Shown one piece after another: positions 6,664 to 41,113 of a DNA stretch of 42,445 nt. Under the pieces are notes generated by a model, which searched no databases, had not been told where the DNA came from, and worked only from the letters and a program-made list of their open reading frames with translations. This stretch comes from Nemertoderma westbladi (Eukaryota > Animalia > Xenacoelomorpha): contig JAUCBJ010007928.1 in assembly GCA_032718475.1 (NCBI GenBank), forward strand, positions 1 to 42,445, read 5' to 3'. Every line of letters starts with the position of its first letter. The first letter of the stretch is position 1. The position numbers and the translations under genes were made by a program.

Positions 6664-6718
6664 TCTTCTTTATTGCAGTAAGCAATAAAGTTGAAAGTAC
6701 CGGTCAACCGGTAAACCT

Positions 6719-6850: not shown

Positions 6851-7020
6851 AGTACACTAGTATTATTCGATTTGATTGTTGTATACCGGTAGGCTGTTTA
6901 AGAGATTAGGGACTGTGCACCCCTTGTTTCTTTTGGAGCTTACTTATTTCTGTCAGTTTTATTTATTTGTAGGCCAGTATTGAGCAGAAGGCGTGTAAGC
7001 CTGATCAGATTGTGCAGACA

Positions 7021-7591
7021 ATTTGTAGGTTGAACTGTTGTCTGATTGCTGTTAAGTCTGAACGGATTGCAGTGTGTGTAGGTCACCTGTCCGATAAAGA
7101 ACGGTTAGGAAGTAGGGGCAGCGAATGCTGTAAGGTAAACCCCCAACTAAAGAATAAGTCGTACTACTGGGTTAGAACGCATACTACCTAATCATTTCGG
7201 GGTCTGCATGTCCTGTAGTTTATTTAGGCTTGAGAGTAGTCTGCCATCGTTTAGTCTGTACTTTGTTTGTGTAAGTCTGTACGGGTAGCGTATAATATTT
7301 ATTTAGATAATTTGTAGGCTGGATAGTTGTCTGGCTGTTATTAGGTCTGAACGGATTGCAGCGTGTGTAGATCACTTGTCCGATAAAGAACGGTTAGGAA
7401 GTAGGGGCAGCGAATACTGTAAGGTAAACCCCCAACTAAAGAATAAGTCGTACTACTGGGTTAGAACGCATACTACCTAATCATTTCGGAGTCTGCATGT
7501 CCTGTAGTTTATTTAGGCTTGATAGTAGTCTGTCAGTGTTTGGTCTGCATTTTGTTTGAGTGGTTTGTACGCGTAGCGTAATATTTATTAT
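7021..7591 (+). repeat. 289-bp tandem duplication in the leader of B
   Basis: CGATAAAGAACGGTTAGGAAGTAGGGGCAGCG at 7092 and 7381; the copies are highly similar throughout. Confidence 0.92.
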
Positions 7592-8528
7592 TCAGAGTTT
7601 ATGCGATTATTCGCAACATTCATTCCCCAAGTTTGTTCCTACAATAATTGTGTTTGTTATACATACCGCTATAGTTAAATTAACCCCGGTACTACACGGG
7701 CTGCTTGGCGTAGGTAAAGACTGGTGATTTTGTGCATCGGTCACTCCAGCAGATGCCGTGGTTCTTTTAGCTGTTCAAGTATATTTAACTACTGATTATC
7801 TGTTGTACAAGTACTCGTACCTAATTTAGGGTTTAGTGTACAGTGCTTTCCGAGAGTAATTAGTGTAGGCATTATATTTGTGTTGTAAAGTGGTTGATAG
7901 GCACGTTCGATTAGCTCTATTAACTTCTAGGTAGGAACACTCCGTGATACATAACGTAGAACCTATAGCGATACGGCTAAAGGTCGTCAGGCGGTGGTAT
8001 TTTCCTATCTGGACAACGCAGTGTATTTACTACTACGTATTATTTTCAAATACCGCAGTACCCTGTCCGTTGTAATAACCAGATTTCTAACCCTTTGTTA
8101 GGCTGGTTTGTAGACTTCTTGTAAAATTACCCTGAAAATTCGTATTTTGTGTTTTTGTAAATTTTTGTGTTTATTTAGAGATTGTAATCTCACCCGAATT
8201 GTACGTAATTTGTAGTATTAAGTAACTTAGGTAAATTAGTATTATTTGTTTTAGTGTCCTATAAGTAACACTTCACTGAAAGCGCACCGCTTTGTGTAGT
8301 GATTACCCCTCAGAAATAATAACATTTATTTCAAACATTGACAAAACCCATTAAAACGGGTATATATATATTATAAATCAAATCTAACGATTTATAAATC
8401 GTAGGCCTACCATACAACCATTAGGTCTCAATATCAGTTGGATTACTGCTCAAATAACGGTAATAAAGTAAGTAAAGTAACAAAGTAACCCTAAAATTCA
8501 GTAATTTAATTATTTAAAATAATTGATA

Positions 8529-8821
8529 TACCGGTATTTACGATAGGCCTATTATCTTTATTTCTATAAATCTAGGCTGAAATTATACCGGTACTTGTAA
8601 TTAATTCTATTCCAGAATTATATATACTATAAACTGTAAGCTGTATACCGGTATTCCCGATAGGCCTATTATATATTTATATATATTTGTGCTAAAATTG
8701 TACCGGTATTCTGTGATAAACCTAGTCTGTAATAAAACTTATAATAGTTATATATACTATAAGCATACCGGTATTCTAATATATTATATATATCACGCTA
8801 CACTGAGTAGCAGTACCGGTA
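8529..8821. repeat. Degenerate ~58-bp repeat carrying six TACCGGTA palindromes
   Basis: TACCGGTA at 8529, 8586, 8646, 8701, 8766 and 8814 in AT-rich spacers. Confidence 0.8.
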
Positions 8822-8909
8822 ATTAATTACTAGGCTATCAGTTAATACTGAGTTACTAGACTTGCTCAGACTGTAATACAGCAGTAGACATTCAACTGTA
8901 CACATAAAC

Positions 8910-14501: not shown

Positions 14502-14556
14502 TCCAGTTCGAACCAAACGGATTTGCTTAAGTATACTGAGCACTTATTTCGATCCA

Positions 14557-16791
14557 TTGGGATTTATTAGCCCAGTTATATTGATTGCTCGTAGTTTGGT
14601 ACAACAAATGTGGCTTGAAAACCACTCATGGGACGATCCACTTAAGGGAGAATTATTGAAGAAGTGGATGAAATGGGAAGATTCTCTGCCAGCTATCGAG
14701 GATTTTATAATTTCCCGTTCATATTTTGGTCATGTTCTCCCTACGTATTCCTATCAACTCCATGTGTTTGGAGACGCCAGCGATATGGGAATAGGTATAG
14801 TAGCCTATCTAAGAGTGGAAACTCCGGATGGAATCAAAGTCGCCTTGGTTACTTCTAAGGCATTAATCAACAACAAGTTGAAAGTTCCTCGAGCGGAGTT
14901 AAAAGCGGCTCTATACGCTACAGCCATCGGCCGGAATGTAACAGAACAGATTGACTATCCATTAGAGAAAACTGTCTATTGGACCGACGCTTTACTCGTG
15001 TTAGAGTATATAACCAATGAAGTCTGTCAGTTCAGCGTCTTCGTTACCAACAGGGTAGCCATCATACTTAGTCGCACGACGATGGACCAATGGAGACATT
15101 GCCCCGGAACGATTAATCCAGCAGACATCGCTTCCCGAGGAGCGACTCCAAAGGAATTGGTAAATACTCCCGAGTGGTTAGGTGGACCTGACTTTCTCTA
15201 CAGAGAAGAAGAAGAATGGCCTCCCCATCTCACAACAGCAGAGATCAGACAGGCCAAGGGAGCGGAGAAAGTTAAACCCAAAACTCGAGCGAGTAAATCG
15301 AAGTTGTTTAAACCTGCGGTTGATCTATCTGTATTATTTACTTCCGGAGAGGATGCTTTGGATCAGAAACCCACCGCCACGACTAAAGAAGTCTTGGAAA
15401 TCCGTGACAAGGATTGGAAATCTGGAATACCAGATATCGCACAAGGACTCTCACCCCTCTTGCAGAGAGCGATATGTCACTACAGTTCCTGGAATCGGCT
15501 CTGCAAAGCCGTCACCTATTTAAAACGATGTTTTCATCATCGTTACTCCGGGACAAAGACCAATGGTGATGATGCTCCATCAACATCTGCACGAGTCCAT
15601 GTTGTTAAAGACCTTCCCCAATACAAGATATCCGACAGGTTTCTAAAGGAGAAGATCAGTTACCAGGAGCATGATGAAACCAACAAACAGATGCTGAGAC
15701 TCCTACAATGCTATGAGGATCCTGATAAGTATTTCCTGTTGTTAAGAAATCCGCAGATGCGCTTAAGGGATCGCTTCTCTAGTACCATGATAGATGGGTT
15801 AATACGTGTTGGAGGCAGGCTCACCAACGCCCCCTTATCCTTTGACACTAAGTTTCCCATACTCATTAGAAATCTTGACATACAAATCAAGATGATTGTA
15901 GATGTTCATAGCAAACTGTACCATGCTGGTAGAGAACGAGTTCTGAGCGAAATTCGAACTCGCTACTATTTTTATAAACCCCGTAGGGCTCTGAACCAAG
16001 TTCTTAGGAACTGCATACCCTGTAGGAAAGCATTCAGTAGGCCTTTAACACAGCGAGAGGCAGAATTACCTAGGGAAAGAGTAAGCTTCTATGAACCACC
16101 CTTTACTAATACCGGTGTGGATTTATTTGGCCCTATTGAAGTATATCGTGCCCGGACTATAGTCAAGAGATGGTGTGTCATCTTCGTTTGTATGACTTGT
16201 AGAGCTATCCATCTCGATATGGTAAACGATCTATCCACCAACAGCTTCGTGTTGAGTTTACGACGACAGATCGCTCGCTTCGGAACCAGTAACACGATGA
16301 GATCGGATAAGGGAACGAACTTCATTGGCGCCAACAACGAAATTCAAGCTTACGTAAAGGACTGGAACAAAAGACAGGTGGACGATCAGCTAAGGATAAC
16401 AGCGTCTAGCTGGACCTTCAACGCCGCCGACGCCCCTTGGTGGGGAGGAAGTTGGGAGAGATTGATTAGGAGCGTGAAGACTGCGTTCCACTTTATTGTA
16501 CCTTGTCGCGCTTATCTCACCGACGAACTATTGCGGACGTTAATGGAGGAAATCGCCGCCTATCTCAACGAAAGACCGCTTATGCCAGTCTCTTCAAATC
16601 CTGATTCTCTGGAAGCGCTAACACCCGCGCACTTTCTACTGAAGAAGCCCGTAGCCATGCTCCCACGATCGGAGATCACAGACGGAGACGAGTACTGCCG
16701 TCGAACCTGGCAACTTATGCAGTTGCTATCCCGTCGTTTCGCTGACAAATTTCGAGAAACATTACCTGCCCACTCTACAACTTCGAACTAA
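14557..16791 (+). CDS. Element B RNase H and integrase (continuation of pol; frameshifted at ~16750)
   Basis: RNase H: FGDAS, PRAEL, WTD, NPADIASRG. Integrase: HSKLYH...CIPC, GVDLFGP, SDKGTNF, WERL. Confidence 0.95.
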   Translation: MGFISPVILIARSLVQQMWLENHSWDDPLKGELLKKWMKWEDSLPAIEDFIISRSYFGHVLPTYSYQLHVFGDASDMGIGIVAYLRVETPDGIKVALVTSKALINNKLKVPRAELKAALYATAIGRNVTEQIDYPLEKTVYWTDALLVLEYITNEVCQFSVFVTNRVAIILSRTTMDQWRHCPGTINPADIASRGATPKELVNTPEWLGGPDFLYREEEEWPPHLTTAEIRQAKGAEKVKPKTRASKSKLFKPAVDLSVLFTSGEDALDQKPTATTKEVLEIRDKDWKSGIPDIAQGLSPLLQRAICHYSSWNRLCKAVTYLKRCFHHRYSGTKTNGDDAPSTSARVHVVKDLPQYKISDRFLKEKISYQEHDETNKQMLRLLQCYEDPDKYFLLLRNPQMRLRDRFSSTMIDGLIRVGGRLTNAPLSFDTKFPILIRNLDIQIKMIVDVHSKLYHAGRERVLSEIRTRYYFYKPRRALNQVLRNCIPCRKAFSRPLTQREAELPRERVSFYEPPFTNTGVDLFGPIEVYRARTIVKRWCVIFVCMTCRAIHLDMVNDLSTNSFVLSLRRQIARFGTSNTMRSDKGTNFIGANNEIQAYVKDWNKRQVDDQLRITASSWTFNAADAPWWGGSWERLIRSVKTAFHFIVPCRAYLTDELLRTLMEEIAAYLNERPLMPVSSNPDSLEALTPAHFLLKKPVAMLPRSEITDGDEYCRRTWQLMQLLSRRFADKFRETLPAHSTTSN

Positions 16792-17119
16792 GTGGTTTGC
16801 GCAGCAAGAAAACGTCAGCGCTGGAGACATGGTGCTTATTGTGGACCCCGATCTCCCACGTAAGCGATGGCAAACAGGACGTATCATCGAGACTCATATC
16901 TCGAGCGATGGTTTGGTGCGATCAGTAGAGCTCGTCGTAATGCGACGTAACTTTAAGAAACCAGGGATAGTCTTTGAGACTCAACAGCTCAATCGCCCAG
17001 TGGGTCGTTTATGTTTACTGGAAAGAGACAGAGAGCTCTCCGGAAACTATGGAAGGCAAGAAACTCTTCCCACGACCACTTCCCTAATCCAACCGACATC
17101 TAGGGACTCCCCAACTTAA
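16753..17119 (+). CDS. C-terminal integrase domain of B pol
   Basis: Removing one T at ~16750 restores EKHYLPTLQLRTKW...GDMVLIVDPDLPRKRWQTGRI...DGLVRSV, as in A (24520-24880). Confidence 0.85.
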
Positions 17120-17329
17120 TGTCGTTCGGAGTGGGCGTGTGACTCTATTATTTTATATTATTTTATTATTTTTATATTTATGTATGTATTACTATGTAAT
17201 TTTATTATAATCGTTTTATTTAATTTAGTAGAATATTATTTAGTGATTATTTAGTAGAATAGTGCAATATGTTCGTGTTCATTGCGTACGTAATTACTTA
17301 TATTATATTTAGTGCGACGGCGAGAAATA

Positions 17330-18686
17330 ATTCTTTTTCTCTTTCCTTACTGTCCGTATTATATTATAAATACGTAACTACAGTAAGATGAAATGTCCGT
17401 ACTTATTAAAGTACAATAAAGCCACTACTATATTTAAGTATTATTGGTAGGCAGAGTATTAGGAATGCAAAGTTCAGATCCTCGTGTCTCGGCTAAACCA
17501 AGCTCTGGGTAGACCTTGGAAACGACTTGCCTCTTCACACTGACATTGCTTCGTGCGATATTGCTCTCATACCGTATATTAAATAATACATATAGTAGCG
17601 TGATGTCCCTTTAACCGTAGCGTATAACGCAAAATAAATCTGTTAAACCCTTTGACCATCTGTAATTCTAGTCGATTAAGATATCGCGGCACCCACCGAT
17701 ATACTTGAAAGACAAATTCTAGAATCAGTGGTTAACGTCCCCAGACAAGTTCTGGAATAAATCGGTGCCCATCTTAAATATTAATTATTTAATATTTGCA
17801 AATCTAATAAGTCAAAATCTGTAAAATTCAGATCCTTCAACAATTCTAGTCAATTAAGATATCGTAGCATTTACCGATATTCTTAAAAGGACAATTTTCA
17901 TAGAGTTAAGGATCTTGTGTCCCCAGACATATTCTAGAATCAAAATATGTCCATCTAATTAGTAAATAATAAAATTTCAGGGAATAATTTAAATTCATGC
18001 CTTTTAATGAATTTAATAAATTGCCATTTTTGCGCAATTTATAACATTCCCAAAATTCCATTAATTAATAGATCAAGGGAGCGGAGATTTATCTTATTAT
18101 GCATATGAGTGTGCGAAAGTCTCCCAAACATAGTCAATAGCCGATAAAATTCATAAAGTCATGTATAAAACAGAGCATTGACTATTAAAGAATACTATTA
18201 AATAACATCCCAGATCTGTATGCATTGGAATTACCCTAATTCTACCGCTAGCTTTGCATAATGTCACCATAGCAACAACCACGCTAGAATTAGAATTGAG
18301 TTAAAAGAACAATAGAAAGCTTGTCCCATTGAATAGCATAGGGAATAAATAGCGCACTACTAGTATCCAAGGATACATAATAATACAGTGACATTCTGGA
18401 AGGCATTGACTAAAGGACAAATGGCCCGAATGTGCGTAGTTGTGACCAGTTGTGTGGTATTTGTGAGTTTATAGGTGAATGTTACTGCTAAAGTGTGTTT
18501 ACAGTAGCTAGTCGCAATCGTAAAAGTAACCTAACTCTCCAAGGAAAACCTGAAGTACATCTAAGCCTTTGGGACGGACAGTCGAGTGACTTGTGCCGGT
18601 TGTCGTTGTCGTTGTGCGGCTACGTCGTTGGCGAAAGTACAGCGGCGACGACACATCGGCGCTGAGGATCTCGTACTGTCCGGGGG
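17330..18686 (+). other. Conserved structured non-coding region between pol and the extra-ORF cassette (paralogue 25100-26607)
   Basis: High A/B similarity without a shared ORF. Several hairpins keep their stems while loops vary. Repeated AAATCTGTTAAA-headed units. Confidence 0.65.
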
Positions 18687-19886
18687 TTGATTGGGGTAGG
18701 CAGCGACGCCCGCTCGCCTAAATATAAACTCATTATAATATGGATAAACTCATATATAGCAGATATGACGGAGTTGATAGAAGATGGTCTTGGTATCGGG
18801 GAGCGATATACTCTACTTTTACAAGCGTTTGTTGATAGCTTAATACGCGGCGACGTTAGTCCAACTGCTGCGGAGGACGATGGTCGTTATATCGAACCGC
18901 CAATGTCCCAAGAGCAGCTCGCGCGAGTTGGACTATAGAAAATTCGCTGCTCGATATACGCAGCGTAATGGTACGTATATGGGCTTTTTAACTACTGATC
19001 ATCCTATCGATTTACACAATACGGACTATGTCGACTATATATCCTGCCCAGCGGAGTCGGAACCATAAACTGAAATTTGAATGCGAAAATTCTATTCGAA
19101 ATCGGCTCGAAAGAAAAGACATTAAAGAAACAAATAAACGCGGTAACTCCAGCATATATTTGGAATTCTTGATAGAAGCATTGTAACAACAAATAAATAT
19201 CATCCGCGTTTCCCCTACCAGACGTGCGTCTTTGGTATTATTACGGTAAATGCCCTAGACCCAGCCAATAAACGGAAAGACATAAACATCCACGGAAACG
19301 TTGTGTTAAACACAGTTGTGTTCGTTATATTTACTGGAGTTTCGAGCGAAACTTGTTTGACGTATCACCTATGCTCACTCGGCTCTAACGATCCTAGAGT
19401 AAACCTACGATCAGAGTCCCGGAATACTCGGTCAAACCTCCTCATTCCTTAGTTGGACCTCAGACCTGCGATCCTGGTGGTGTCGCGGATCCTCGCGGAC
19501 GGTATTCACTGTTCAAGATCTAGTGCTACCCTAACAATTAATCGGTAACACTCCGGCAGTGATTTCTAGCTAGCCGCCCATCTTTCCTAGCCGGATTATG
19601 ACGCAGACACCTAATATCACTATCCAACCGTATGGTCGTCCCATTTAACGCGATACAACCCTTCATCAAGGTGAAGGAGAGCGTTGTACGAAACGAGTTA
19701 AACGCTATTCTATAAAGATCAAAAAAGAAACCTGCGTTTGTTCAGATAAACGTAAGTTATAACAGTAAGTCCAATCGATAAACGAATTGGCCTTATCTCA
19801 GTTCGATTGGGAAACCTCGAATCTCAAAGAAGATATCAAGCTTAGAAAACCCTATTCTCTGCGAGAGTTTTGGACGAACGTATCCC

Positions 19887-20093
19887 ATGACAAGCGGAGG
19901 AAAATCAGCTCGAGGAGGAGCATATCGAAATGGACGAGACACCGACCGTAAACCCAAACCTTCTAATGCAATCATATTGCACCCTTCACCCAGGAGTTAT
20001 GGCCCTCCTAGTAAAGTGGCTCCCCCCAAAGAGAAAAAGACTCTGGCTAACTTTAAAAAACTGCGTAAACGCCGTCCGCGCAAGAAAGACTAA
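19887..20093 (+). pseudogene. Remnant C-terminus of the extra ORF in B (basic NLS-like tail)
   Basis: KPKPSNAIILHPSPRSYGPPSKVAPPKEKKTLANFKKLRKRRPRKKD aligns with the end of ORF 30009-31895. Confidence 0.75.
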
Positions 20094-20163
20094 CTGTTTA
20101 GAGTATTTATGTATATTAGAAATTGTGATTTTGTATATTTTATAGACTTAAATCCCATTTTCT

Positions 20164-20171
20164 GGGAGCGG
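20164..20171 (+). promoter_or_regulatory. Short polypurine tract of B
   Basis: GGGAGCGG abuts the TG of the 3' LTR. The same site in A is altered (TAAATATTTGCGG). Confidence 0.65.
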
Positions 20172-21332
20172 TGTAAAAGCTTTTGTGGGATAACTGATTC
20201 GTTTGCCTTGTTAACCAGTTCCCCCCCAGGCGCTGAATACTCTAAAAGGGGATCTATAACTCGAATAGCGCAAGCTACCGGCTGATTGGCTGATTCGCTG
20301 TGCGAAGGGATCTGGGCTACGTTTGATTGTCCAACCAGCTTGGGAAAGTATCTGCCAATAGGATTTGAGTTGATTTTGATTTCGACCTATCACAGATCTA
20401 CTGAACTGAATTTTCCTATCTGTATGCTCTTTCTCTGTGTTGGGTGGAAGCCTTTGTAAATAAGGTTATTCTTATCAGTTTTCAGTGTTGTTGGTCTTTC
20501 TTTCCTAAGCCAGGAGAGAACGGCTTGGAAATATTTTGTGCCTTTCTGTTTTAATCTAACACTAGTAGGCTTAATTATAAGGACATATATCCGTTATCAA
20601 AACAAACCAAACAATCCATACCAAACTTAACACACACTGAATCACTGTGCATACTTTTATATTGTTATACTGCTATTTACTGTCAGTTCTTCATAATATG
20701 GTTGATGAATTATTATATTTGGAATAACGATAAATAACCCCGAAACCCAATATTCTTGATATACCGAAGGTAAGAGAGAAAGGTTACATATAACGATTGT
20801 GACTTATGTTAAAGTGGTTTGAAGTGAATCTAATGTTATTTGATAGACCCTACATGAGTCGGTCCGTGTTCCTTTTATATATAACTAAAATCAGTGAAGA
20901 TCGGCAGATCAGTGTGCAGTATTGTGCAGCATTGTGTATGAGTGAACCTGATAACGAAGCATTTCCTAAAGAATGCGCCATATATGTGAATTATAACTAA
21001 GCCATATCGTTGTGAGTAGTTTAAGTCATAACTCTGTTTGTATAGATAGAGCGCCACGTCCTAAAGGAACTGTTAATATTCCCCGAAGGTGAATAATATT
21101 GTCAGAGATTATATAATACTGTGAGTCGAATAATACATTAGGCTTACATAGCAATAAGATTAAGCCGTCGAACCCAATCTCCCGGGTATATCCAGCGGGT
21201 GAATGATCGCGCACAGATTGGTTTCGACTAGTGTAGTGAATTAAATACTTGTCATAGACTAAAAGTGATTTATTATCTAGAAGACATTCTAATTTGGCGG
21301 GTTAAACTGCCAAAGGTCTGAAAGCACGAACA
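20172..21332 (+). repeat. 3' LTR of element B
   Basis: Direct repeat of 5492-6652, followed by TSD CGTTA. Confidence 0.97.
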
Positions 21333-21337
21333 CGTTA

Positions 21338-24300
21338 TCTGAAGGAGGAGGGTCGCTATGAGATTGGTCTGGCTTTTAGGTGGAGAGAACCCAGCTTCGT
21401 TAATAACCGACCTTTAGTGGAAAAGAGAATCGCACAGCTACATCGGCGCTTAATGTCCAACGTTCGAGCCAAAGAGATATATAAGACGCAACTAAAGAAA
21501 TTCATCAACAAGGGATACGCGGAGCGAGTTCCGGAAGAAACACCCAGAACAGAAAGAACGTATTACTTGACACACCATTACGTTCCCAAATCCGGTAAAC
21601 CAAACGAAGTCCAGGTAGTGTTTGATGGCTCCGCCCTTTATATGGGACAATCCCTAAACTCAGAACTGTTGCCAGGACCCAACTTACTCCAATCTTTGTT
21701 GGGAATATTATTACGATTGCGGCAATATTCAGTCGCCTTTGCCTCCGACATTGAAGGCATGTTTCTACAAGTAAAAGCATTAGATAGGGATCGAGATAGC
21801 CTACAATTTATGTGGTGGCCTGAAGGAGACCTCAACCGAAAACCGGTGGAATACTGGATGACAATCCAGGCTTTCGGGATCATATCGAGCCCCTCGAACG
21901 CTTGTTCAGTAGTGCGCACCACTGCCGACGATAATAGAGATGCCTACTCTAAAGCGGTTATCGACAACATCAAACGGGATATTTACATGGACGACAATCT
22001 AAAGTCCCTCCCATCGGTGGAAGAAGCAATCGATGTTGCCAAGGGAATGGTAGAGTGCTTTCAACGAGGTGGATTTTGCCTAACCAAATTCACTAGTAAC
22101 TCACGTGAGTTCCTGGAATCGATCCCAGTAGAAGACCGAGGTGTTAAAGATCTTGACCTCATTAAGGACGATCTTCCAGAAACGAAGACCCTTGGACTGA
22201 AATGGGACACGGAGAGAGACATTTTATTTTTCCAACTGAAACAACGTGATAATCTCGTTCGAACTAAACGGATTTTCCTGAGTATTCTGAGCGCTTTCTT
22301 CGATCCATTGGGATTCATTAGCCCTGTAATCCTAGTTGCTTGGAGCTTGGTACAACAAATGTGGCTCGAAAACCAATCGTGGAATGATCCACTCCAGGGA
22401 GAACTGCTAAAGAAGTGGATGAAGTGGGAGGATTCTTTACCATCTATCGAGAACTTTAAGATTTCCCGCTAGTATTTCAGTCACGTTCTCCCCACGTATT
22501 CCTATCAACTCCATGTTTTTGGAGACGCCAGCGATATTGGAATAGGTATAGTAGCCTACCTGAGGGTTGAAACTCCCGATGGAATTAATGTTTCATTAGC
22601 CACCTCTAAGGCCCTAATGAACAACAAACTGCGGGTTCCCAGAGCGGAGTTAAAGGCAGCACTATACGCTACAGCCATCGGCCGGAATGTAACGGAACAG
22701 ATCAACTATCCACTAGAGAAAACTGTCTATTGGACTGATGCGTTACTCGTTCTGGAGTATATAACTAATGAAGTCTGTCAGTTCAGCATCTTTGTTACCA
22801 ACCAAGTAGCTATTATACTCAGTCGCACTAATATAGATCAATGGAGACATTGCCCTGGGACAATTAATCCAGCCGATATCGCTTCCAGAGGAGCAACTCC
22901 TCAAGAACTGATAGACACTCCAGATTGGTTAGGTGGCCCCGACTTCCTAGGTAAAGAATAGGAGGAATGGCCCCCTCATCTCACCACGGCGGAGATCAGA
23001 CAACACGGCGGAGAAAGTCAAACCGAAAACCCGGATGAGTAAATCAAAGTTGTTTAAGCCAGCGATTGATCTGTCTGTGCTACACACCGCCGGTGATGCC
23101 ACTGTGGATCCGAATCCATCTTTGGATGTTACTCAAACCATAAGTAAATCCGTCATAGAAATAAGGGAAAGAGATTGGAAATCTGGAACACCAGACATCT
23201 CCCATGGACTCTCTCCTCTCATCCAAAGAGCGATGGCTCATTATTGCTCCTGGAATCGGCTTTGCAAGGCCATTGTGTATTTAAAATGATGTATTCTAGG
23301 ACGAAGATTGCTAATGATGCCACTTCAGTAGTAGCTGAAAAGGTCCATGCTACCAAACACCTTCCCACTTATCGGCTGCCTGATAGGTTTTTTGACAGAG
23401 AAATATCAGTTACCAAGAACATGATAATACCAACAAGCATATACTGAGACTCCTGCAATGTTACAAGAATTCAGAAAAGTATTTCCTGTTGTTGAGAAAT
23501 CCACAGATGTGCTTAAGGGATCCTTTCTCTAGCATAATGATAGATGGGCTAATACGTGTCGGAGGAAGATTAACCAATGCTCCATTTTCCTTTGACACTA
23601 AGTTTCCCATACTCATTAGAAATCTTGAAATACAAATCAAGATGATTGTAGATATTCACAGTAAGCTTTACCACACTGGTAGAGAATGAGTTCTTAGCAA
23701 AATTCGAACTCGCTATTATTTCCATAAGCCCCGTAGAGCTCTAAACCAAGTTCTTAGGAACTGTATACCCTGTAGGAAAGCATTTAGTAGGCCTTTAACA
23801 CAGCGAGAGGCAGAATTTCCTAGGGAATGAGTCAGCTGTTATGAACCACCCTTTACTAATACTGGTGTGGATTTATTTGGCCCAATTGAAGTATATCGTG
23901 CTAGGACTATAGTCAAGCGATGGTGCGTCATCTTTGTCTGTATGACTTGTAGAGCGATCCATCTAGATATGGTGAATGATCTATCTACCAACAGCTCCAT
24001 ACTGAGTTTGCGCTGACAAATCGCTTGTTTTGGGACTAGCAACACTATGAGATCTGACAAAGGAACTAATTTCATTGGCGCCAATAACGAGATTAAAGCT
24101 TACGTAAAAGATTGGAACCAAAGACATGTGGATGATCAGTTAAGAGTAACAGCATCTAGCTGGACCTTCAATGCCGCCGACGCCCCTTGGTGGGGAGGAA
24201 GTTGGGAGAGACTCATATGTAGCGTGAAGACTGCATTTCACTTTATAGTGCCGTGCCGAGCGTATCTCACCGATGAACTTGATGAACTTGAACTTGAACC

Positions 24301-24880
24301 GATGAACGGAGGAAATCGCCGCTATCTCAATGAGAGACCGCTTATGCCAGTCTCATCGAGTCCCGTCTCCCTAGAAGCGCTAACACCCGCGCATTTCCTA
24401 CTAAAGAAACCTGTAGCCATGCTCCCGCAGTCAGAAATAACGGACAGAGACGAGTACTGCCGACAAACTTGGCAACTTATGCAGTTATTATCCCGTTGTT
24501 TCTCTGACCATTTTGAAAAATATTATCTTCCTACGCTACAACTTCGAACAAAGTAGTTTGCGCAGCAAGAAAACGTCATTGCCGGAGTCGTGGTCCTTAT
24601 CGTGGAATCAGATCTTCCCCGTAAGAGGTGGCAGACAGGTCGTATCATCGAGACTCATATATCCAATGATGGTTTAGTGAAATCGATGGAACACGTCGTC
24701 ATGCGACGTAACTTCAAGAAACCTGGAATTTTGTTCGAAACTCAACAACTTAATCGCCCGGTTGGTCGTTTATGTTTACTGGAAAGAGACCGAGAGTTAT
24801 CCGGTAACTATGGAAAACAAGAGACTCTTCCCACGACCACCTCCCTAATCCAACAAACATCTAGGGACTACCCAACATAA
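21338..24880 (+). pseudogene. Element A RT-RNase H-integrase, disrupted
   Basis: YMDD, NPADIASRG and SDKGTNF present. About ten stops/frameshifts, several being CGA>TGA relative to B (23287, 23687, 24014). Confidence 0.93.
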
Positions 24881-27109
24881 CAGCGTTTGGAGTGGGTGTA
24901 TGACTACATTATTTCATTTGTTTATTTTTATATTTATGTATGCATTATTATGTAATTTATATTATTATGATCGTTTTCTTTAATTTTATTTAGTAGAATA
25001 ATATTTTTAACGATTATTTAGTAGATTAGTGCAATATATTTCGTATTTTATTACTCAATTACTTAGTATAATATATTTCGTTAACGGCGAGAAATAATTT
25101 TGTTTTCTCTTTCCTTACTGTCCGTATCATACTATAAATACGTGACTACAGTAAGATGAAATGTCAGTACTTATTAAAGAACAATATACCGCTCCTACTA
25201 TACTTAGGTATTATTGGTAAAGTAGAGTATTAGGAATGCAAAGTTCAGATACTCGTGTCTCGGCTAAACCAAGCTCTGGGTAGACCTTGGAAACGACTTG
25301 CCTCTTCTCACTGACATTGCTTCTTGCAATATTGCTCTCATACCGTATCTTAAATAATACATATAGTAGAAAGATGTCCATTTAACAGCAGCGCTGTCAA
25401 AGTAAATCTGTTAAAATCTTTGACCCATAAATCTGTTAAACCCTTTGACCATCTGAAATTCTAGTCGATTAAGATATCGCGGCACCCACTGATATACTTG
25501 AAAGACAAAATTCTAGAATCAGTGGTTAACGTCCCCAGACATTTGTTAAATATTCACAACGTTTGTTATAACAAATGTTAAAGTAAAAGAAATAGGGAAA
25601 ATCTGTTAAACCCTTAGATCCTTTAAAGATCTAGTCGATTGAGATATATAAAGATATATCTTATTACAACAGGTTGTTAACCTGAGAAAAATCTGTTAAA
25701 ATTTTACAGCATTATTATAATAAAATGCTGACAAATCTTTTAAACCCTTAGATCCTCTAAAATTTTAGTCGATTAAGATATAGTAGTACTTACCGATGCC
25801 CTTAAAAGACAAAATTTCTGGAATCAAGGATCAGTGTTCCCAGACATGTTCTGGAATAAAACTGTGTCTATTTTAATATCAAATAATAAAATTCACAGGA
25901 ACAAATTTTAAATTCATATCCTCTCATGAATTTAATAAATTGTCATTTTATACAATTTATAAACATTCCCAAAATTCCGTTAATTAATAGATCATGGGAG
26001 CGGAGATTCATCCTATTAAGTATATCAGTGTGAAAGAATCTCCAGTGTACAGTCAATAGCCGAGAAAATTCATAAAATCATGTATAATGGGAATATAGAC
26101 AATTAAAGAGTCACTATTAAATAGCATCCCAGATCTGTATGCATGAAAAATACCCTAATTCTACTGCTAGCTTTGCATAATGTCACCATAGTAACAACCA
26201 CGCTAGAATTAGAAGTGAGTTAAAAGAACAATAGAAGGCTTGCTCATTGAATAGCATGCGGAATAAATAACACCTTGATAGTATCTAAGGATACATAATA
26301 ATAACGTGGCATTCTGGAAGGCATCTGACTAATGGACAAATGGCCCTAATTTGTACAAATTGTGGCAGGAATGTGGAATTTGTGTATTTATAGGTGAATG
26401 TTACTACTAAAGTGCAGTTACAGTTGCGAGTCGCAATTGTGAAAGTTACCCTACATCTGTATCAAGTACCTCCAGTATATTCGAGCCCTTGGGACGGACA
26501 GTGGAGTGACTCGCGCTGGTTATTGTTGTCGTTGTGTGGCTACTACATTGGCGAGGGGCACAGCGACAACAGTACATCAGCGCTGTCCGGGCTGGGCTGT
26601 CCGGGGGCAGAGAGGGGAAGACAGCTACGCATTCGAACTCGCGCAGTGTTATGTTACCGATACCGAGCGCAAACCGGCCATGGGTATAGATGGGATAGTT
26701 GGAAATTAAGCACACAATCAAACACAACCAAAAACACACCCAAACACAATCAAACACAGTCCAAATGTTAACCAATTTTGTCAAACACAGTCCAAATCGG
26801 AAAGCCAAGGTAAATCTACATCAGTTTGTATAAAAATTATTTTCAAAATGTCCGCACAATGCCACTATTATTGCCAATTTGTATCTCAACGCACAGCTAG
26901 ACTGGTTGCTAGGCGCTAGTGAGTGACGTTGGCCTTATATCCCTTGCACACTGTACTGTACAGCCTACTCGGTAGGGGTAGGCAGGTAGGCATATTGCAG
27001 TATTGCGATCACATACCGGCTGGCCGGTGATGTAGTGAGGTAGGTACCGTACCAATAGTTAGTTCTTTAAATCATTGTATTTTATTCCGCTATTTGTTAT
27101 GGTACCCGT

Positions 27110-29563
27110 CTCTGGATCCATCTCTCGTATCTCTGGAAATGGATTGTTTTCGGCTGGAACCCAGTTCAAGAAGCGAACTGGAAAGCTATGGACTCATAGT
27201 GGACCCAGTGGTCACAAGTCCCAGATAGACCATATTCTGTTTCGTAGGAAATACAGGAGCTCTATACAAGACTGTAATGCATTTACACTTCGACCCTTCT
27301 CCAGTGATCACCGCCTTATTGTGGCCAAGGTAAGACTTAGACTGCCTGCTAGCAGAACAACGAAATCTGCCTTACCGCGGCATGACTAGTCCTCTCTGTT
27401 GCAACAGCCAAGTGTGAGATCCAGCTTCACACTACAGCTGAGCAACAGGTATGAGGCTCTTGCCTCTGAGGCGGCAGATCACTGTGAGGGCTATACTGCC
27501 TTTACAGAAGCAGTTAAGTTAGCAGCTGCACAAACAGTTCCTGTATACCCTCGAAACAGGAAAAGGGCCCCCTGGACTGACAACAAAATTCAGAAGTGCC
27601 GAAATGACCTTCATAAAGCGCAGAAAGAGTCCCAACTCAAACAGACTACAGCGACCAAGAATGCAGTTAAGGCTGCATCTAGGTCCCTGAACAGGCAGTA
27701 CTCTGTTAATCTACAGGAGCTAATAAACCAACAGGTTGATGCCATCAATGATGCAGAAGATAGCAGGCAATCATCCCAGGCATGGAAATCGATCAATCTG
27801 CTTACTGGGCGGAAAAGCCAACCAACCACCAAGGTTAAGGCTGAATAACCAGCCGATCGCCTCAATGGTTGGAAAGCCCACTTTGAAAAGCTCCTCAATA
27901 ATGACAGGGTATTGCCTGATAACTTTATAGAAGTAAAAGTGTCTGAGTCTGTACTCCCAGATATTCCCATTGGCGATATCTCCTTTGCAGAAGTGAAGGC
28001 TGCTGCAAAGAGCATTAAGACCAATCGTGCCAGTGGAGTAGATGGTGTTCCCCCTGAGGTCTTTAAAATACCTGAGTGTTTAAAGCTCATCTATCCCATC
28101 ATAGTAGACATGTACCGAACAACAAGAGTCCCACAAGAAATGAAAACAAATAAGTTGGTGCCAGTTCCCAAGAAGGGCAACCTAACACTCTATGGTTCTT
28201 TTCGGGGAATCTCATTGATCTCGATTGCTGCAAAGTTATACAATAGGATTCTATTAAATCGCATCAGGGATCCCATTGAGAGACTGCTACGTGGAAATCA
28301 GAATGGGTTCCGCAAAGGTCGTGGGACCATGGAGCCCATTTTGGCACTTAGAAGGATAATTGAAGAATTATCAAAAAAGAAAGACAGGCATCTGGCTGTT
28401 ATCTTTGTTGACTTCTTCAAGGCTTTTGATTCAGTCTCTCGGTCACGTATGTTCAGCATACTTTCATTATATGGGATTCCTGATGAAATTATTGCAGCAA
28501 TCAGATCAGTATACGATGGTTCGACAACATTTGTGTCTACTGTTGATGGTGACACAGAACCATTTGAAGTGTTTTGGGGCGTCCTCCAAGGAGACACACT
28601 TGCACCATTCTTGTTCATTATTGTGGTTGACTATGTTCTACGCATGTCCTTAGATCATCATAATGATGATGGGGTGATGATAACTCCACCTACTGGCTCC
28701 AGAAGTCGAGGAAATCCTGCCAAGTACCTAACTGATCTAGACTTTGCTGATGACTTAGGAGTACTCTCAGAATCATTAGAGGGAGCCCAACGGCTCCTCA
28801 GCTCATTAGAACATGCTGCTTCTAGTGTTGGTCTTTTTATTAACTCCAGAAAGACCAAAATTCTGACAGTTAACTTTGAAAGTCCTCAGCAAGTCTCTGA
28901 TCGGATGAGCATAAGCTCAAAGGATGGTATGCTTGAGCATGTGGACGACTTCTGTTACCTGGGATCATGGATCCGGAAGTCAGGTGAGGACCTTCGAATA
29001 AGTAAGGGAAAGGCATGGGCAGCCTTGAATAGGCTTTCCAGGATTTGGAAGTCACCTAGAATTAATCGGAAACTTAAGGTCCGATTATTTAGAGCAGCAG
29101 TAGTTCCAGTACTCCTCTACGGGAGTCCATGCTGGGCTCTAACTGCTGAGGACACCAAATCTCTGGATGGCACATTCACAAGAATGCTACGCCGGGTTCA
29201 TTGTGTCAAGTACAATGCACACATCTCCAACCAGACACTATATAACATTGGAGGTGTCTCATTGGTTCCCCCAAGCTTGACACTAGAACAAAATCGCCTC
29301 CACTTTGCAGGACATTGCTTTCGCCGTGAGGAACAGCCAGTGCATAATCTTGTACTTTGGCAGCCTCATGGAGTGAATAAGCATGGTGGACAGCCCATGA
29401 CTTTCTTGAGACGCATCTTAAAGGACACTGGCCTTAAAGATGCGGATGATCTAGCAAATGTCATGGGTGATAGGGAGTTGTGGCAGTGCAATTTTGTTGA
29501 CAAGCCGGCACAGCATTCTTAAAAATGCAGCTGCAATGCAGCATGCCGATCCTAGTAGTAGTA
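27110..29563 (+). mobile_element. 5'-truncated RTE-like LINE
   Basis: 11-bp TSD ATGGTACCCGT (27099-27109 and 29564-29574), (TAG)n tail, very short 3' UTR, endonuclease remnant QIDHIL...SDH, stops at 27387 and 27846. Confidence 0.94.
27912..29522 (+). CDS. LINE reverse transcriptase domain (open part of a disrupted ORF)
   Basis: FRGISL, QNGFR, FVDFFKAFDSV, GVLQGDTLAPFLF, LDFADD, FCYLGS. Confidence 0.92.
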   Translation: MPDNFIEVKVSESVLPDIPIGDISFAEVKAAAKSIKTNRASGVDGVPPEVFKIPECLKLIYPIIVDMYRTTRVPQEMKTNKLVPVPKKGNLTLYGSFRGISLISIAAKLYNRILLNRIRDPIERLLRGNQNGFRKGRGTMEPILALRRIIEELSKKKDRHLAVIFVDFFKAFDSVSRSRMFSILSLYGIPDEIIAAIRSVYDGSTTFVSTVDGDTEPFEVFWGVLQGDTLAPFLFIIVVDYVLRMSLDHHNDDGVMITPPTGSRSRGNPAKYLTDLDFADDLGVLSESLEGAQRLLSSLEHAASSVGLFINSRKTKILTVNFESPQQVSDRMSISSKDGMLEHVDDFCYLGSWIRKSGEDLRISKGKAWAALNRLSRIWKSPRINRKLKVRLFRAAVVPVLLYGSPCWALTAEDTKSLDGTFTRMLRRVHCVKYNAHISNQTLYNIGGVSLVPPSLTLEQNRLHFAGHCFRREEQPVHNLVLWQPHGVNKHGGQPMTFLRRILKDTGLKDADDLANVMGDRELWQCNFVDKPAQHS

Positions 29564-30008
29564 ATGGTACCCGTAATCCAGTAGGCCTAATCTATTCTGT
29601 CTGTCTGTAGGGCTAGGCAGCTAGGGCTACTGCAGTACTGCAAATTTCGATTACCGCAAATTACCGGTCAGCCGGTATGTGATAGCAATACTGAAATATG
29701 CCTTGCCTACCTCTACCAGAGGCTGTACTGTACGTACATCAGTGTACAGGGGATATAAGGCCAACGTCACTAGTGCCTAGCAACCAGTCCAGCTGTGCGT
29801 TGAGATATAAATTGGCAATAATAGTGGCATTATACGGACATTTTGAAAATAATTTTTATACAAACTGAAGTAGAATTACCTTGGGTTTCCGATTTGGACT
29901 GTGTTTGACAAAATTGGTTAACATTTGGACTGTGTTTGATTGTGTTTGGGTGTGTTTGGTTGTGTTTGATTGTGTGCTTAATTTCCAACTATCCGTATAG
30001 ATGGATCT

Positions 30009-31895
30009 ATGCTACCCCAGCCAGTCCTTGAGATGCTGTTTGACGAGAGAATAATTAAAGTCGGTTCAGCTGTTTATGGAGATTTCCCAAATGACTTTAG
30101 AAATATGGAGAATATCCCATATCCTTTCGTAGACACCCAACTGATTGCACCATGGGCAGAAGGCCGAGGTTTCTTCCGAACTATGTATGCCAATACACCG
30201 AGGGGAATCAATAAAGTACAAAGAACCTCTATCGGACATCTTGCCTTCCAAGAATACGGATGGAATTTTAAAGTTGGAAATCCTGTCAGTTATCAACAAA
30301 TATATGGCGACCCTTATTCTCGATTATATTTCGATGGACCATTAACAGCGCCCCGAGTCATTTATAGCTTTATGAGTGTTCCACTCCGTCCCTCATTAGC
30401 TATATATACCATCTTCGAGAATGCCGCACTTGCCAGTTGGCTAGCCGATGTGTGCAGTCGAACTATACGCGCTCATCCCTTAGTGCTTGGAACTAAACTC
30501 GCTAAGTTAGATGAACACAATAAATTCATCAGATTCGAATGCTTTAGGCGCTCTCTGACTCCGTTCCGTAACGTTGACAGTCAGTTTAAAGACCGCGATT
30601 TGACCAAACTCAGCCTGAGAGATTACGCTGCTGAGAAGTTGGACAGCGCTGGATTTGCCATTCGTTTGTATGACGTTTGTATACAGAATCTACATTCATC
30701 TGTTATACAAAGACCCCAAATCCCCACAGGTTATTCTATTGTGGAAGTTCAAACGGTGGGTTCCCTTGAGAAAACAGCTACATCTATCGCAGCTAAGCAA
30801 GTTGAAGAAGAACCAATTTGCTTGGAATCTGAAGACATTCAACCTGCAGCATCCAGGAGTAGCGATAATGATTATGTGTTGGAATGGTATCAAGGTCCAC
30901 AATGTCTCACGGCATATGATTATCGGCATGCCAATTACATTTCTAGGAAATGTTGCCGATTATGTGCATCACGGGATCACTTTACCCCAACGGATTCCAG
31001 CAAACCCTGCTCCTACTTTAAAGACCAACCTATTATGGAGATTTATTGTGCTTATTGTAGACTCAATAATCTACACATTTTTGCAGTTTGTCATCAATTT
31101 ATGACTCAATGTCACCACTGTCAATTCAAAGGACATGCAAGTTTCGATTGCCCTCTCAATCGAGATCTAGAAAGCGTAGATGAAATAGTTACCTTGTGTT
31201 ACATCAGATCTTGGGAAGCATTATCAGATCTTACATCAGATCTCCATTGCGAATCACGTCACCGATACTATCCAGGACGTATATATGAAGGAGTTTATGC
31301 ATTTCACCCATACCTCTTTTCCTCCGTTGAACAAAAATATCGCACCCCCAGTTACGAACTGATGAAACGTGTTGGTGAGAACATTTCAACCAAATACGTT
31401 CGCAAATATCTGAGGAATATTAATCCCAATAACCCGGATTCTTATAACTTGATCAACTTCATCCGCCAAGATCCGGAATACGGTGACTTGTTCATAAACT
31501 CACATCCTGAGTTACAAGAAGTTCATAGAAGACCATATGAATATAAAGCCAGAGAACGCGAATTAGAGAGAACAATCAAACCGAGGAAATTTCTCGCTAC
31601 ACACGGTCAACCTACCGCTGTCGTGCAAACGACCCATCAAGGACCAGTAAGAGCTGCCATCCTGAAACGAGCTCTAAAGGTTGTTCACCCTCGATCCACC
31701 GATGTCGACATCGATCAACTGGGTACCGCGACCGGCGGATATACTGATTGTAATCCAAAACCTTCTGATGCTATCGTATTGCACCCTTCCCCCAGGAGTT
31801 ATAGCCCTCCTAGTAAAGTGGCTCGCCCCAAAGAGAAAAGGACTCTTACTAGTCTTAAAAAACTCCGTAAACGCCGTTCGCGAAAGAAGGACTGA
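30009..31895 (+). CDS. Extra ORF of element A: DEDDy/RNase D-WRN-like 3'-5' exonuclease-like domain + CCHC zinc knuckles + basic tail
   Basis: LPQPVLEMLFDERIIKVGSAVYGD...FVDTQLIA...SIGHLAFQEYG resembles the Exo II region of WRN/EXD/Mut-7-type domains. Also CRLC..H..C, CAYC-x5-H-x4-C, CHHC-x4-H-x4-C and KKLRKRRSRKK. In frame with 26506-26692 once the MULE-like insertion is removed. Confidence 0.75.
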   Translation: MLPQPVLEMLFDERIIKVGSAVYGDFPNDFRNMENIPYPFVDTQLIAPWAEGRGFFRTMYANTPRGINKVQRTSIGHLAFQEYGWNFKVGNPVSYQQIYGDPYSRLYFDGPLTAPRVIYSFMSVPLRPSLAIYTIFENAALASWLADVCSRTIRAHPLVLGTKLAKLDEHNKFIRFECFRRSLTPFRNVDSQFKDRDLTKLSLRDYAAEKLDSAGFAIRLYDVCIQNLHSSVIQRPQIPTGYSIVEVQTVGSLEKTATSIAAKQVEEEPICLESEDIQPAASRSSDNDYVLEWYQGPQCLTAYDYRHANYISRKCCRLCASRDHFTPTDSSKPCSYFKDQPIMEIYCAYCRLNNLHIFAVCHQFMTQCHHCQFKGHASFDCPLNRDLESVDEIVTLCYIRSWEALSDLTSDLHCESRHRYYPGRIYEGVYAFHPYLFSSVEQKYRTPSYELMKRVGENISTKYVRKYLRNINPNNPDSYNLINFIRQDPEYGDLFINSHPELQEVHRRPYEYKARERELERTIKPRKFLATHGQPTAVVQTTHQGPVRAAILKRALKVVHPRSTDVDIDQLGTATGGYTDCNPKPSDAIVLHPSPRSYSPPSKVARPKEKRTLTSLKKLRKRRSRKKD

Positions 31896-31979: not shown

Positions 31980-33074
31980 TGTAAAAGCTTTTGCGGACAT
32001 AACAAGTCATTTTTATGCAATGCACTGAATACTCTAAAAAAGGCCTAAAATTGTTCAACTACGCGTCGGTCAGAAATTAGAACCAAGATGACGAAATCTG
32101 TCAGCTGATTCTTTGTGTACGTGGAGGTTTCTTTGTTTGGGCCTATTCAGCCAATTAGAGCAATCTTCCCAGTTATGCCAATAGAGACCTACCTGTGGAA
32201 ATTGGCGCATGCGCAGTTATAGTTTTTCTGAGAATCCTATTCCTTTCGGGAATCAGTACTAAGTACAGACGTTTCAGACTTTGGCCCAAGAATATCTGAT
32301 GGCTGGAGTTATAAGAACGTAAATCTATTAACTGAACATCGGCACAAACCGCACCTTATCATACTGAACTTCATGAACACATACTGACTGTTCACCGCAC
32401 TGTTTTAATGCTGTTTTATATTGTTGTTAATTGCTGTTTATATTAATGGATGTTATATTTGGAGAATACAGATAAATAATCGTAAACCCCTCAAGTTTCT
32501 TAATTACTGAGGTAAGCAGAAGGGTCTACCGGTAGCAACTGCGACTCAAATTATAGTGGTTTTTGTGTGGATTAAATGCTATTTCATAATCCCTAAGTGT
32601 GTCAGTTGCAATCCTCCTTATATATGATCAGAATCAGTGACGGTCGGCAAATTAGTGTGAATTAGTGTGGAGTAGTGTGAAGTCGTGTGAAGGTTAATAA
32701 AGCAACTCCTAAAGAATGTGCTATTTACGAGATTCCATAGCCATCTAGTTGTGATTAGTGTAAGTCATAACTCTGTTTTATACTTAAAGCGCCACGTCCA
32801 AAAGGAACTGTTAATATTTCCCCGAAAGTAAATATAGTTGTTGGAGATTATATAGTAGCGATCAATCGAATAATACAAAGTAGCCTACACCGCAATAACT
32901 TTCTCTGGACCCGAATCCAGTCTCCCACACAGTGGGTCATACGCCGTGCACGGACTGGCTTCGGCGGATGTAAATTCAATACACTAGGTAATTGGTAAGG
33001 GCAAAAGTCGATTTATAATTAAAAGGACATTTAAATTGGCAGGTTAACTGCTAAAAGGTCTAAAAGCGCGAACA
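31980..33074 (+). repeat. 3' LTR of element A (1095 bp)
   Basis: TGTAAAAGCTTTTG...AAAGCGCGAACA, same termini as the B LTRs. The 3' two-thirds is alignable and the first ~330 bp is largely diverged. Confidence 0.93.
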
Positions 33075-41085: not shown

Positions 41086-41113
41086 CATTTGTTTGTTTGA
41101 GTTCTTTTCATAA

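What the first reader, a model, noticed from the sequence alone, without database searches (positions are those of the whole stretch)
26506..31895. BEL element carries an extra ORF with a DEDDy-like exonuclease, zinc knuckles and NLS in the env position
Seen: a 628-aa ORF between pol and the 3' LTR of A. Removing the MULE-like insertion and one TSD joins it in frame to upstream ...CYVTDTERKPAMGIDGS-MLPQPV..., which supplies an Exo I-like D-x-E (DTERKP). An Exo II-like KVG..V..D follows. The Exo III-like site reads YSFMS (no Asp), and the Exo I-II spacing is unusually short, so the domain may be inactive or partly deleted. Three CCHC-type clusters and a KKLRKRRSRKK tail follow; no obvious transmembrane segment, so it is not env. 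Known: DEDDy proteins such as Mut-7/Nibbler, EXD1, Egalitarian and Rrp6 act in small-RNA trimming, RNA transport and decay. Inference: a captured nuclear RNA-processing or anti-silencing factor, or a primer-processing partner for the unusual PBS. Precedent in other BEL lineages was not checked.
Basis: partly seen in the sequence, partly recalled or inferred. Interest (0 to 1): 0.8.

Follow-up and report, generated by a model that had tools for sequence, protein, structure and literature searches.

The report
BEL retrotransposon carrying exonuclease-knuckle gene
A broken copy of a many-copy animal retrotransposon of the BEL/Pao group carries, where an envelope gene would sit, an extra gene whose product resembles RNase D-type RNA-trimming enzymes joined to zinc knuckles and likely helps the element handle or protect its RNA, a gene type already described in rotifer retrotransposons.

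Summary
The ORF is real (628 aa from ATG 30009). Upstream it is cut by a TIR element with a 9-bp TSD and flanks in one phase. It lies between pol and the 3' LTR of a decayed BEL element.

A DEDDy/RNase D-like domain is supported, though each test is weak or moderate: ESM features 0.91, NCBIfam RNase D E 0.004, above all 500 shuffles, hhalign 92.7% together with relative P0001. Folding failed, so the fold is not shown directly.

Exo I is unresolved, and this copy's exonuclease start is short or replaced.

Public DNA runs hold many diverged copies, and the TIR insertion is rare in them. Young sister element B lacks the gene, so it is accessory.

DEDDy ORF3s are published for rotifer LTR elements, and this scan noted a similar case in another genome. 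The BEL host, knuckle fusion and swappable slot are what is new. Function is inferred only.

The parts
1..5491 (+). Element A gag-protease region, decayed, with an antisense LINE inserted at ~600-2420; A's 5' LTR and PBS lie before the window
5492..21332 (+). Younger BEL element B nested in A; LTRs 5492-6652 and 20172-21332 99.8% alike; 5-bp TSD; lacks the exonuclease gene
18710..19947 (+). B's alternative filling of the same slot: 16-28 stops in each of six frames, no Pfam match, no significant tblastn match to the A gene
21333..24880 (+). Element A RT-RNase H-integrase, decayed (stops and frameshifts)
24881..26630 (+). Leader shared by A and B (79-84% alike); includes a conserved TTTATAG/G at 26387-26394, a possible splice acceptor (inferred)
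26631..26692 (+). 5' piece of the exonuclease gene; holds ELAQ (26635-26646) and DTE (26659-26667); 26630/26631 is a junction where copies diverge
26693..29994 (.). Non-autonomous TIR element (MULE-like by ~340-bp TIRs and 9-bp TSD; no transposase seen) that breaks the gene in this copy
27099..29563 (+). 5'-truncated LINE (EEP remnant + RT, 11-bp TSD) nested in the TIR element; the LINE-free joint is present in runs X2, X3, X5
30004..30470 (+). DEDDy/RNase D-like domain, 3' part: Exo II KVG..D 30057-30083, DTQ 30132-30140, Exo III-like PL..YTIFE 30381-30419
30954..31151 (+). Three Cys/His clusters, the last a canonical CCHC knuckle
31750..31895 (+). Basic tail shared with element B (dN/dS 0.34 in this frame on 8 synonymous and 10 non-synonymous changes)
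31980..33074 (+). 3' LTR of element A; the purine run before it differs from B's

Best explanation
This is a broken copy of an accessory third gene of a many-copy BEL/Pao retrotransposon family, whose product has an RNase D-like exonuclease domain plus zinc knuckles and likely binds the element's RNA and trims RNA 3' ends to shield it from host silencing or decay. Shown: the ORF, its place, the insertion that breaks this copy, many diverged copies in other individuals, and a young sister element without it. Supported by sequence profiles but not by a fold: the DEDDy assignment (about 85%). Inferred: expression from a spliced subgenomic RNA through the shared leader; RNA binding by the knuckles and basic tail; metal-dependent 3'-5' trimming with a D-E-D-E acidic set in whole copies; small guide RNAs or decay-tagged element RNA as the target. 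This copy is unlikely to make a working enzyme, because its exonuclease start is cut by the TIR element and is about 20 residues short or replaced.
For: ESM Atlas: 26 of 30 hits PF01612, best 0.91, 162 of 256 features shared. NCBIfam: the only hits are the two RNase D models, E 0.0044 and 0.04. An own profile of 30 PF01612 domains (mostly RNase D) gives the ORF piece 11.4 bits and P0001 14.2 bits, with 0 of 500 shuffles as high. hhalign of P0001 plus the ORF piece: probability 92.7, score 50.6 against a best of 20.7 in 60 column shuffles; the global alignment maps Exo I (P0001), Exo II, DTQ and Exo III. The best of 2 hits among 1.84 billion proteins, P0001 (E 9e-7), has the same order of exonuclease-like domain and CCHC knuckles and keeps D, E, D, E. 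P0001's knuckles match retroviral nucleocapsids (E 1e-4). Family-wide presence: dozens of allele-bearing contigs per site, summed depth about 50,000-160,000 over the exonuclease part against about 70-1,800 in the TIR element. One X5 contig, about 8% diverged, bridges the ORF body, tail and 3' untranslated part. Indels listed near 30660-30671 pair up by depth to a net 3 bases. Dispensable in cis, as accessory genes are: B lacks it.
Against: No Pfam PF01612 hit for the ORF or P0001. No PDB sequence hit to any exonuclease. The profile of 40 stand-alone bacterial PF01612 proteins did not score the ORF piece above shuffles (11 of 500 as high). The tool states that shuffled proteins reach 0.9 in the Atlas 4-10 times in 100. 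The local matches cover only about 45-48 residues around Exo II. Exo III has Glu, not Asp, and Exo I is unresolved, so catalysis may be lost. Of 24 listed differences from other copies, 19 are non-synonymous and 5 synonymous (a selected subset of 496 rows), a neutral-looking ratio. Nothing here tests substrate, expression or localisation.
Confidence: 0.38

Rival explanations
1. The protein is a catalytically dead DEDDy fold that serves as an RNA adaptor, in the manner of Egalitarian or EXD1 (roles recalled; EXD1 and Maelstrom are named as inactive RNA-binding derivatives in PMC5408684). It would carry or localise element RNA, or act as a decoy for host small-RNA machinery.
For: Exo III Glu for Asp. 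Exo I spacing in this copy is far outside 70 of 70 references. No indel is listed between 26631 and 26692 in other copies, so the short DTE-to-break spacing is not private to this copy. Knuckles and a basic tail suit RNA binding.
Against: P0001, only 31-33% identical, keeps an acidic residue at all four aligned positions. Rotifer ORF3s also carry one D-to-E swap (DEED) and are read as possibly active (PMC5408684).
Confidence: 0.25
2. The enzyme works inside the replication cycle, trimming a primer, the genomic RNA 3' end or the cDNA 3' ends (the first reader's PBS idea; proposed for rotifer ORF3s and, for DNA ends, for Dada transposons).
For: B's sequence after the 5' LTR does not begin with TGG, whereas the ICTV profile describes an 18-nt tRNA-complementary PBS (PMC8742986). 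Nucleocapsid-like knuckles could bring it into the particle.
Against: B moved recently (LTRs 99.8% alike) without the gene. The shared tail is several times deeper in public runs than the exonuclease part (about 380,000-650,000 against 50,000-160,000), which suggests that gene-less copies are common. Supply in trans is not excluded.
Confidence: 0.15
3. The ORF is a passenger: a piece of another mobile element or host gene caught by template switching into a tolerant slot and amplified with the family, without serving it.
For: Sharp junctions at 26630/26631 and ~31750, with a different non-coding filling in B. Neutral-looking differences. P0001's genomic context is unknown.
Against: 630 codons without a stop, while A's gag-pol has 14 stops in 2314 codons and about 11 frameshifts (Poisson 0.02 for stops alone, 0.001 for both). 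Frame-preserving indels. Copies 11-14% diverged exist.
Confidence: 0.14
4. The N-terminal domain is not DEDDy at all, and the motif matches are chance.
For: Both AlphaFold2 models failed (mean pLDDT 32 and 35). No Pfam or PDB sequence hit.
Against: Four methods point to the same family and region, and P0001 has canonical Exo I to Exo II spacing (60).
Confidence: 0.08

Closest known systems
DEDDy-type ORF3 of bdelloid rotifer LTR retrotransposons Juno and Vesta (Rodriguez, Kenefick, Arkhipova 2017, PMC5408684; passages read)
   Same: Extra ORF downstream of pol in the env position; RNase D-like DEDDy domain; no transmembrane segment; family-specific presence; one D-to-E change in the motif; activity never shown.
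   Different: The host here is a BEL/Pao element; the clades named in the passages are Juno, Vesta, TelKA and Mag (gypsy-type from recall). The swap here is at Exo III (D-E-D-E) against DEED. The domain is fused to three CCHC-type clusters and a basic tail.
DEDDy ORFs of Terminon/Athena retroelements (PMC6431247, PMC5408684) and of Dada DNA transposons (PMC3706591); passages read
   Same: Mobile elements that carry a DEDDy exonuclease as an accessory function.
   Different: Different element classes; in Dada the domain lies inside the transposase.
Nematode BEL/Pao elements with an env-like third gene (Tas, Cer7, Cer13, Atlas; PMC554778, PMC9094657, PMC8742986; passages read)
   Same: BEL/Pao elements that captured a gene between pol and the 3' LTR.
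   Different: Those genes are envelope-like; this one has no transmembrane segment. I recall, without being able to check it (paper not held), that an exonuclease domain may have been noted in a C. elegans Cer element; if so, BEL precedent exists.
RNase D / Rrp6 / EXD1-Egalitarian branch of PF01612
   Same: LL.D..i.K....D, P..DTQ and W...PL...Q..Y motifs.
   Different: Exo III Glu, an insertion of about 20 residues before Exo III, and knuckles in place of HRDC domains. No tree was built, so the donor is unknown.
P0001 (unnamed 648-aa protein from an ENA assembly)
   Same: Same domain order; 31% identity over 150 residues in the exonuclease part and 33% over 43 in the knuckles; Exo III Glu.
   Different: Has a complete Exo I region; single-member cluster; genomic context unknown.

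Membership tests
DEDDy 3'-5' exonuclease (PF01612) | Score over the family's curated cut-off | tested here: not met
   No PF01612 hit at E<=1 or E<=10; RNase D models hit only at 16 bits, far under cut-off
DEDDy 3'-5' exonuclease (PF01612) | Remote profile similarity above shuffled controls | tested here: met
   0 of 500 shuffles for two of three own profiles; hhalign 92.7%, 0 of 60 shuffles; Atlas 0.91
DEDDy 3'-5' exonuclease (PF01612) | Exo I D-x-E at proper spacing | tested here: inconclusive
   DTE aligns to the Exo I column but lies 29 residues from the Exo II Lys against 49-61; alternatively ELAQ is the conserved L.Q strand (34, within 32-44) and Exo I is missing from this copy. Met in P0001.
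DEDDy 3'-5' exonuclease (PF01612) | Exo II Asp | tested here: met
   D of YGD falls in the invariant column
DEDDy 3'-5' exonuclease (PF01612) | Exo III Y-x3-D | tested here: not met
   Y-x3-E in both the window ORF and P0001: Tyr and an acidic residue are kept, Asp is not
DEDDy 3'-5' exonuclease (PF01612) | RNase H-like fold | tested here: inconclusive
   Models at pLDDT 32-35; fold searches uninformative
DEDDy 3'-5' exonuclease (PF01612) | Metal-dependent 3'-5' nuclease activity | not testable with these tools
   needs an assay
BEL/Pao LTR retrotransposon (host element) | Gag (DUF1759)-PR-RT-RNase H (Peptidase_A17)-integrase order | tested here: met
   Pfam on B: DUF1759 1e-6, Peptidase_A17 3e-36, Integrase_H2C2 3e-7, DUF5641 3e-18; A is 73-81% identical in DNA
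BEL/Pao LTR retrotransposon (host element) | TG..CA LTRs and a target-site duplication | tested here: met
   B: 1161-bp LTRs and 5-bp TSD; A: 3' LTR 31980-33074 only, 5' end outside the window
BEL/Pao LTR retrotransposon (host element) | 18-nt PBS complementary to a tRNA 3' end | tested here: inconclusive
   B lacks TGG after the LTR; no host tRNA set to compare; A's PBS is not in the window
env gene | Transmembrane anchor | tested here: not met
   best hydropathy window 1.19
Rotifer-type DEDDy ORF3 pool | Grouping with Juno/Vesta/Athena DEDDy ORFs in a tree | not tested
MULE (the interrupting element) | Long TIRs and 9-bp TSD | tested here: met
MULE (the interrupting element) | MuDR-type transposase | tested here: not met
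   the only long ORFs inside are the nested LINE's; about 840 bp remain without it, so it is non-autonomous

The most novel reading that the evidence does not exclude
This BEL family has a swappable cargo slot between a shared spliced leader and a shared basic tail. One cargo is an element-encoded suppressor of small-RNA silencing, a D-E-D-E exonuclease guided by nucleocapsid-like knuckles, that works in trans for the whole family and stays under selection even in copies whose gag-pol has decayed. It would belong to an old, undescribed mobile exonuclease-knuckle gene family (P0001).
Probability: 0.12. Interest if true: 0.8.

Novelty: new variant of a known kind. Interest (0 to 1): 0.45.

Why it matters
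DEDDy ORF3s of LTR elements have been known since 2017, but in the passages read their activity and purpose are stated to be unproven. A many-copy BEL family with and without the gene in one genome is a natural comparison: copy number, age, small-RNA coverage and dN/dS can be set side by side. If the gene counters piRNA or siRNA silencing, it would be a rare animal retrotransposon-encoded suppressor. As it stands it extends a known arrangement to another LTR clade and adds a knuckle fusion.

Tried and rejected
No whole genome was held, so no uninterrupted copy could be read.

Searches that found nothing useful: word-index protein searches with the ORF (0 of 4628 candidates), with P0001 (self only) and with the two-sequence profile among longer proteins (self only). 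Locus scans of metagenome and viral contigs found nothing. PDB sequence searches gave no exonuclease. Phage and plasmid tblastn gave only E 3-10 rows, several in family A DNA polymerases; not counted. PHROGs gave nothing named. Rfam found nothing in the window. P0002 (ankyrin repeats, E 6e-4) was dropped as spurious.

AlphaFold2 failed twice, and Foldseek and VIA searches on the second model were uninformative. No RNA holder was listed.

Rejected: YSFMS as Exo III; env; a one-off insertion; my own early idea that the 26394-26771 frame is the conserved upstream coding frame (dN/dS 0.97); B's middle as a decayed copy of this gene.

Uncovered part: 29995-30039 has low depth although 30040 onward is deep. 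Most copies may differ there, but no contig joins across it, so it is not used as evidence.

Literature: searches listed no paper with a DEDDy ORF in a BEL/Pao element. The term 'BEL Pao' scored no occurrence in any listed row and probably misses the slash spelling; one search used whole-word 'Pao'. 'Exonuclease' occurs 0 times in the main text of PMC3118150, PMC8742986, PMC554778 and PMC9094657. Supplements, Repbase, GyDB and subscription papers were not seen.
Full report
ANATOMY. The window holds an old BEL/Pao element A (gag from before position 1 to 5491, pol 21333-24880, 3' LTR 31980-33074). A younger relative B (5492-21332) is nested in it, with 1161-bp LTRs 99.8% alike and a 5-bp TSD. 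Pfam on B gives DUF1759, Peptidase_A17, Integrase_H2C2 and DUF5641. A and B are 73-81% alike in gag-pol DNA, with dN/dS 0.04-0.16. After pol they share a leader up to A 26630 = B 18709 and a tail from A 31750 = B 19948. Between these points A has the ORF in question. B has 1.24 kb with 16-28 stops in every frame and no Pfam or significant tblastn match.

THE OBSERVATION. The frame 29982-31895 is open for 637 codons; shuffles reach at most 205 (2000 shuffles). It is cut upstream by a TIR element at 26693-29994 with ~340-bp arms, a 9-bp TSD and flanks in one codon phase. That element holds a truncated LINE with an 11-bp TSD; the LINE-free joint is present in 3 of 4 runs.

IS IT A DEDDy DOMAIN? 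Pfam and PDB sequence searches are blank. Both structure predictions failed at pLDDT 32-35, so the fold searches mean nothing. Four weaker lines agree.
- The ESM Atlas gives PF01612 for 26 of 30 hits, best 0.91; the tool says shuffles reach 0.9 in 4-10 of 100 cases.
- NCBIfam's only hits are RNase D models, E 0.0044 and 0.04, on the Exo II region.
- I built profiles from 70 bacterial PF01612 domains: 40 stand-alone proteins picked by length from the matches, and 30 from the loci, mostly RNase D. The 30-domain and combined profiles score the ORF piece at 11.4 and 8.3 bits with 0 of 500 shuffles as high; the stand-alone profile does not separate it (11 of 500).
- A full HMMER scan of 1.84 billion proteins returned 2 hits, one spurious. 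The other, P0001 (E 9e-7), has the same domain order. The pair aligns to the combined profile at hhalign probability 92.7, score 50.6 against at most 20.7 in 60 shuffles.
I put the DEDDy assignment at about 85%.

CATALYTIC SITES. Exo II Asp falls in the invariant column. Exo III is PL-x6-Y-x3-E (YTIFE, 30405-30419), matching P0001's YIYCE and the references' YAA.D; a forced MAFFT alignment did not place it there. Exo I is open. DTE at 26659-26667 aligns to the Exo I column, but it lies 29 residues from the Exo II Lys, against 49-61 in all 70 references and 60 in P0001. Alternatively ELAQ is the conserved L.Q strand (34 residues; references 32-44), and Exo I would lie 17-20 codons further up, beyond 26630/26631. 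At that point other copies diverge: loose ends before 26631 in 9 contigs of X2 and 6 of X3, and B-type sequence behind 26630 in X5. On either reading this copy lacks about 20 residues of the domain's start, or has them replaced.

OTHER COPIES. Three of 6 listed DNA runs hold 23-33% of the ORF's 31-letter words (two studies; X1 and X2 are one sample). Laid contigs give summed depth of about 50,000-160,000 over 30040-30660 and 74,000-164,000 over 26650-26689, against about 70-1,800 inside the TIR element in X1-X3. Depth is not a copy number, but the contrast and the dozens of allele-bearing contigs per site show a multi-copy gene in which this insertion is rare. Pieces 11-14% diverged exist, and one X5 contig bridges 31476-31927, from the ORF body through the tail into the 3' untranslated part. 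No contig spans a whole copy, so linkage to both LTRs in other copies is not shown. The shared tail is deeper still (380,000-650,000), which suggests that gene-less, B-like copies are the commoner kind.

SELECTION. A's gag-pol has 14 in-frame stops in 2314 codons and about 11 frameshifts, while the ORF has none in 630 codons (Poisson 0.02 for stops, 0.001 for both, 0.009 if the insertion counts as one lesion). Lesions are uneven, though: the RT part has 0 stops in 293 codons. Indels near 30660-30671 pair up to a net 3 bases. Against this, 19 of 24 listed differences are non-synonymous (a selected subset). A late swap of the cassette into an old copy, or longer selection on this gene, would both explain it. 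This remains unexplained.

MECHANISM. The gene is dispensable in cis, since B moved recently without it. It has no membrane anchor, and it joins a 3'-end-binding fold to nucleocapsid-like knuckles (P0001 against HIV NC, E 1e-4). I therefore favour an accessory RNA-binding 3'-5' trimming enzyme that protects element RNA from silencing or decay (0.38). Rivals: a dead RNA adaptor (0.25), a primer or cDNA processing enzyme (0.15), a passenger (0.14), a wrong fold call (0.08). Expression through a splice acceptor at 26393/26394, conserved in A and B, is inferred. None of the functional steps is shown.

COMPARISON WITH WHAT IS KNOWN. PMC5408684 (passages) reports RNase D-like DEDDy ORF3s, with DEED for DEDD, acquired at least twice by rotifer Juno and Vesta LTR elements and shared with Athena elements, activity unproven. 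PMC5718144, PMC6431247 and PMC6338049 repeat this (passages), and Dada DNA transposons carry a DEDDy domain (PMC3706591, passages). For BEL/Pao, the passages seen describe only env-like third genes; PMC11662393 and PMC3985635 added nothing on this (passages). Ten searches listed no BEL case, with the limits given under Tried and rejected; an exonuclease in a nematode Cer element is a recollection I could not check. An earlier unchecked note of this scan describes Rrp6-like genes in two LTR families of another genome.

VERDICT. A real feature and a new variant of a known kind; this copy is broken. Interest 0.45.

Noticed in passing
window 11576-11652: A 77-nt antisense copy of the nested LINE's 3' end (100% identical to 29487-29563) sits in B's gag without breaking the frame: a very recent truncated LINE insertion.
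   Followed up: partly
window 18710-19700: B's non-coding slot filling is CpG-rich (observed/expected 1.44 over 18710-19947) and folds into a long hairpin (z -2.9 on 20 shuffles). No Rfam match. It could be a structured RNA cargo or a source of double-stranded RNA.
   Followed up: partly
window 6653-6680: The sequence after B's 5' LTR does not start with TGG; the primer is unknown. B also has a long (~2.2 kb) leader with a 289-bp tandem duplication at 7016-7589.
   Followed up: no
window 31960-31979: The purine run before A's 3' LTR differs from B's, and A's and B's LTRs are alike only in their last ~620 bp (70%).
   Followed up: partly
window 33075-36687: A second TIR-bounded element (arms 77-89% complementary) begins right at the end of A's 3' LTR.
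   Followed up: no
window ~600-2420 (- strand): Another truncated LINE (EEP + RT remnants) is inserted antisense in A's gag.
   Followed up: no
window 40024-42445: An ORF with a weak C2H2 finger match and 9/27-bp repeats, followed by a long 9-bp-period repeat array.
   Followed up: no
P0001: Unnamed 648-aa singleton with a complete DEDDy-like motif set (Exo III Glu) and three CCHC knuckles, invisible to Pfam PF01612; it may mark a wider undescribed family.
   Followed up: partly
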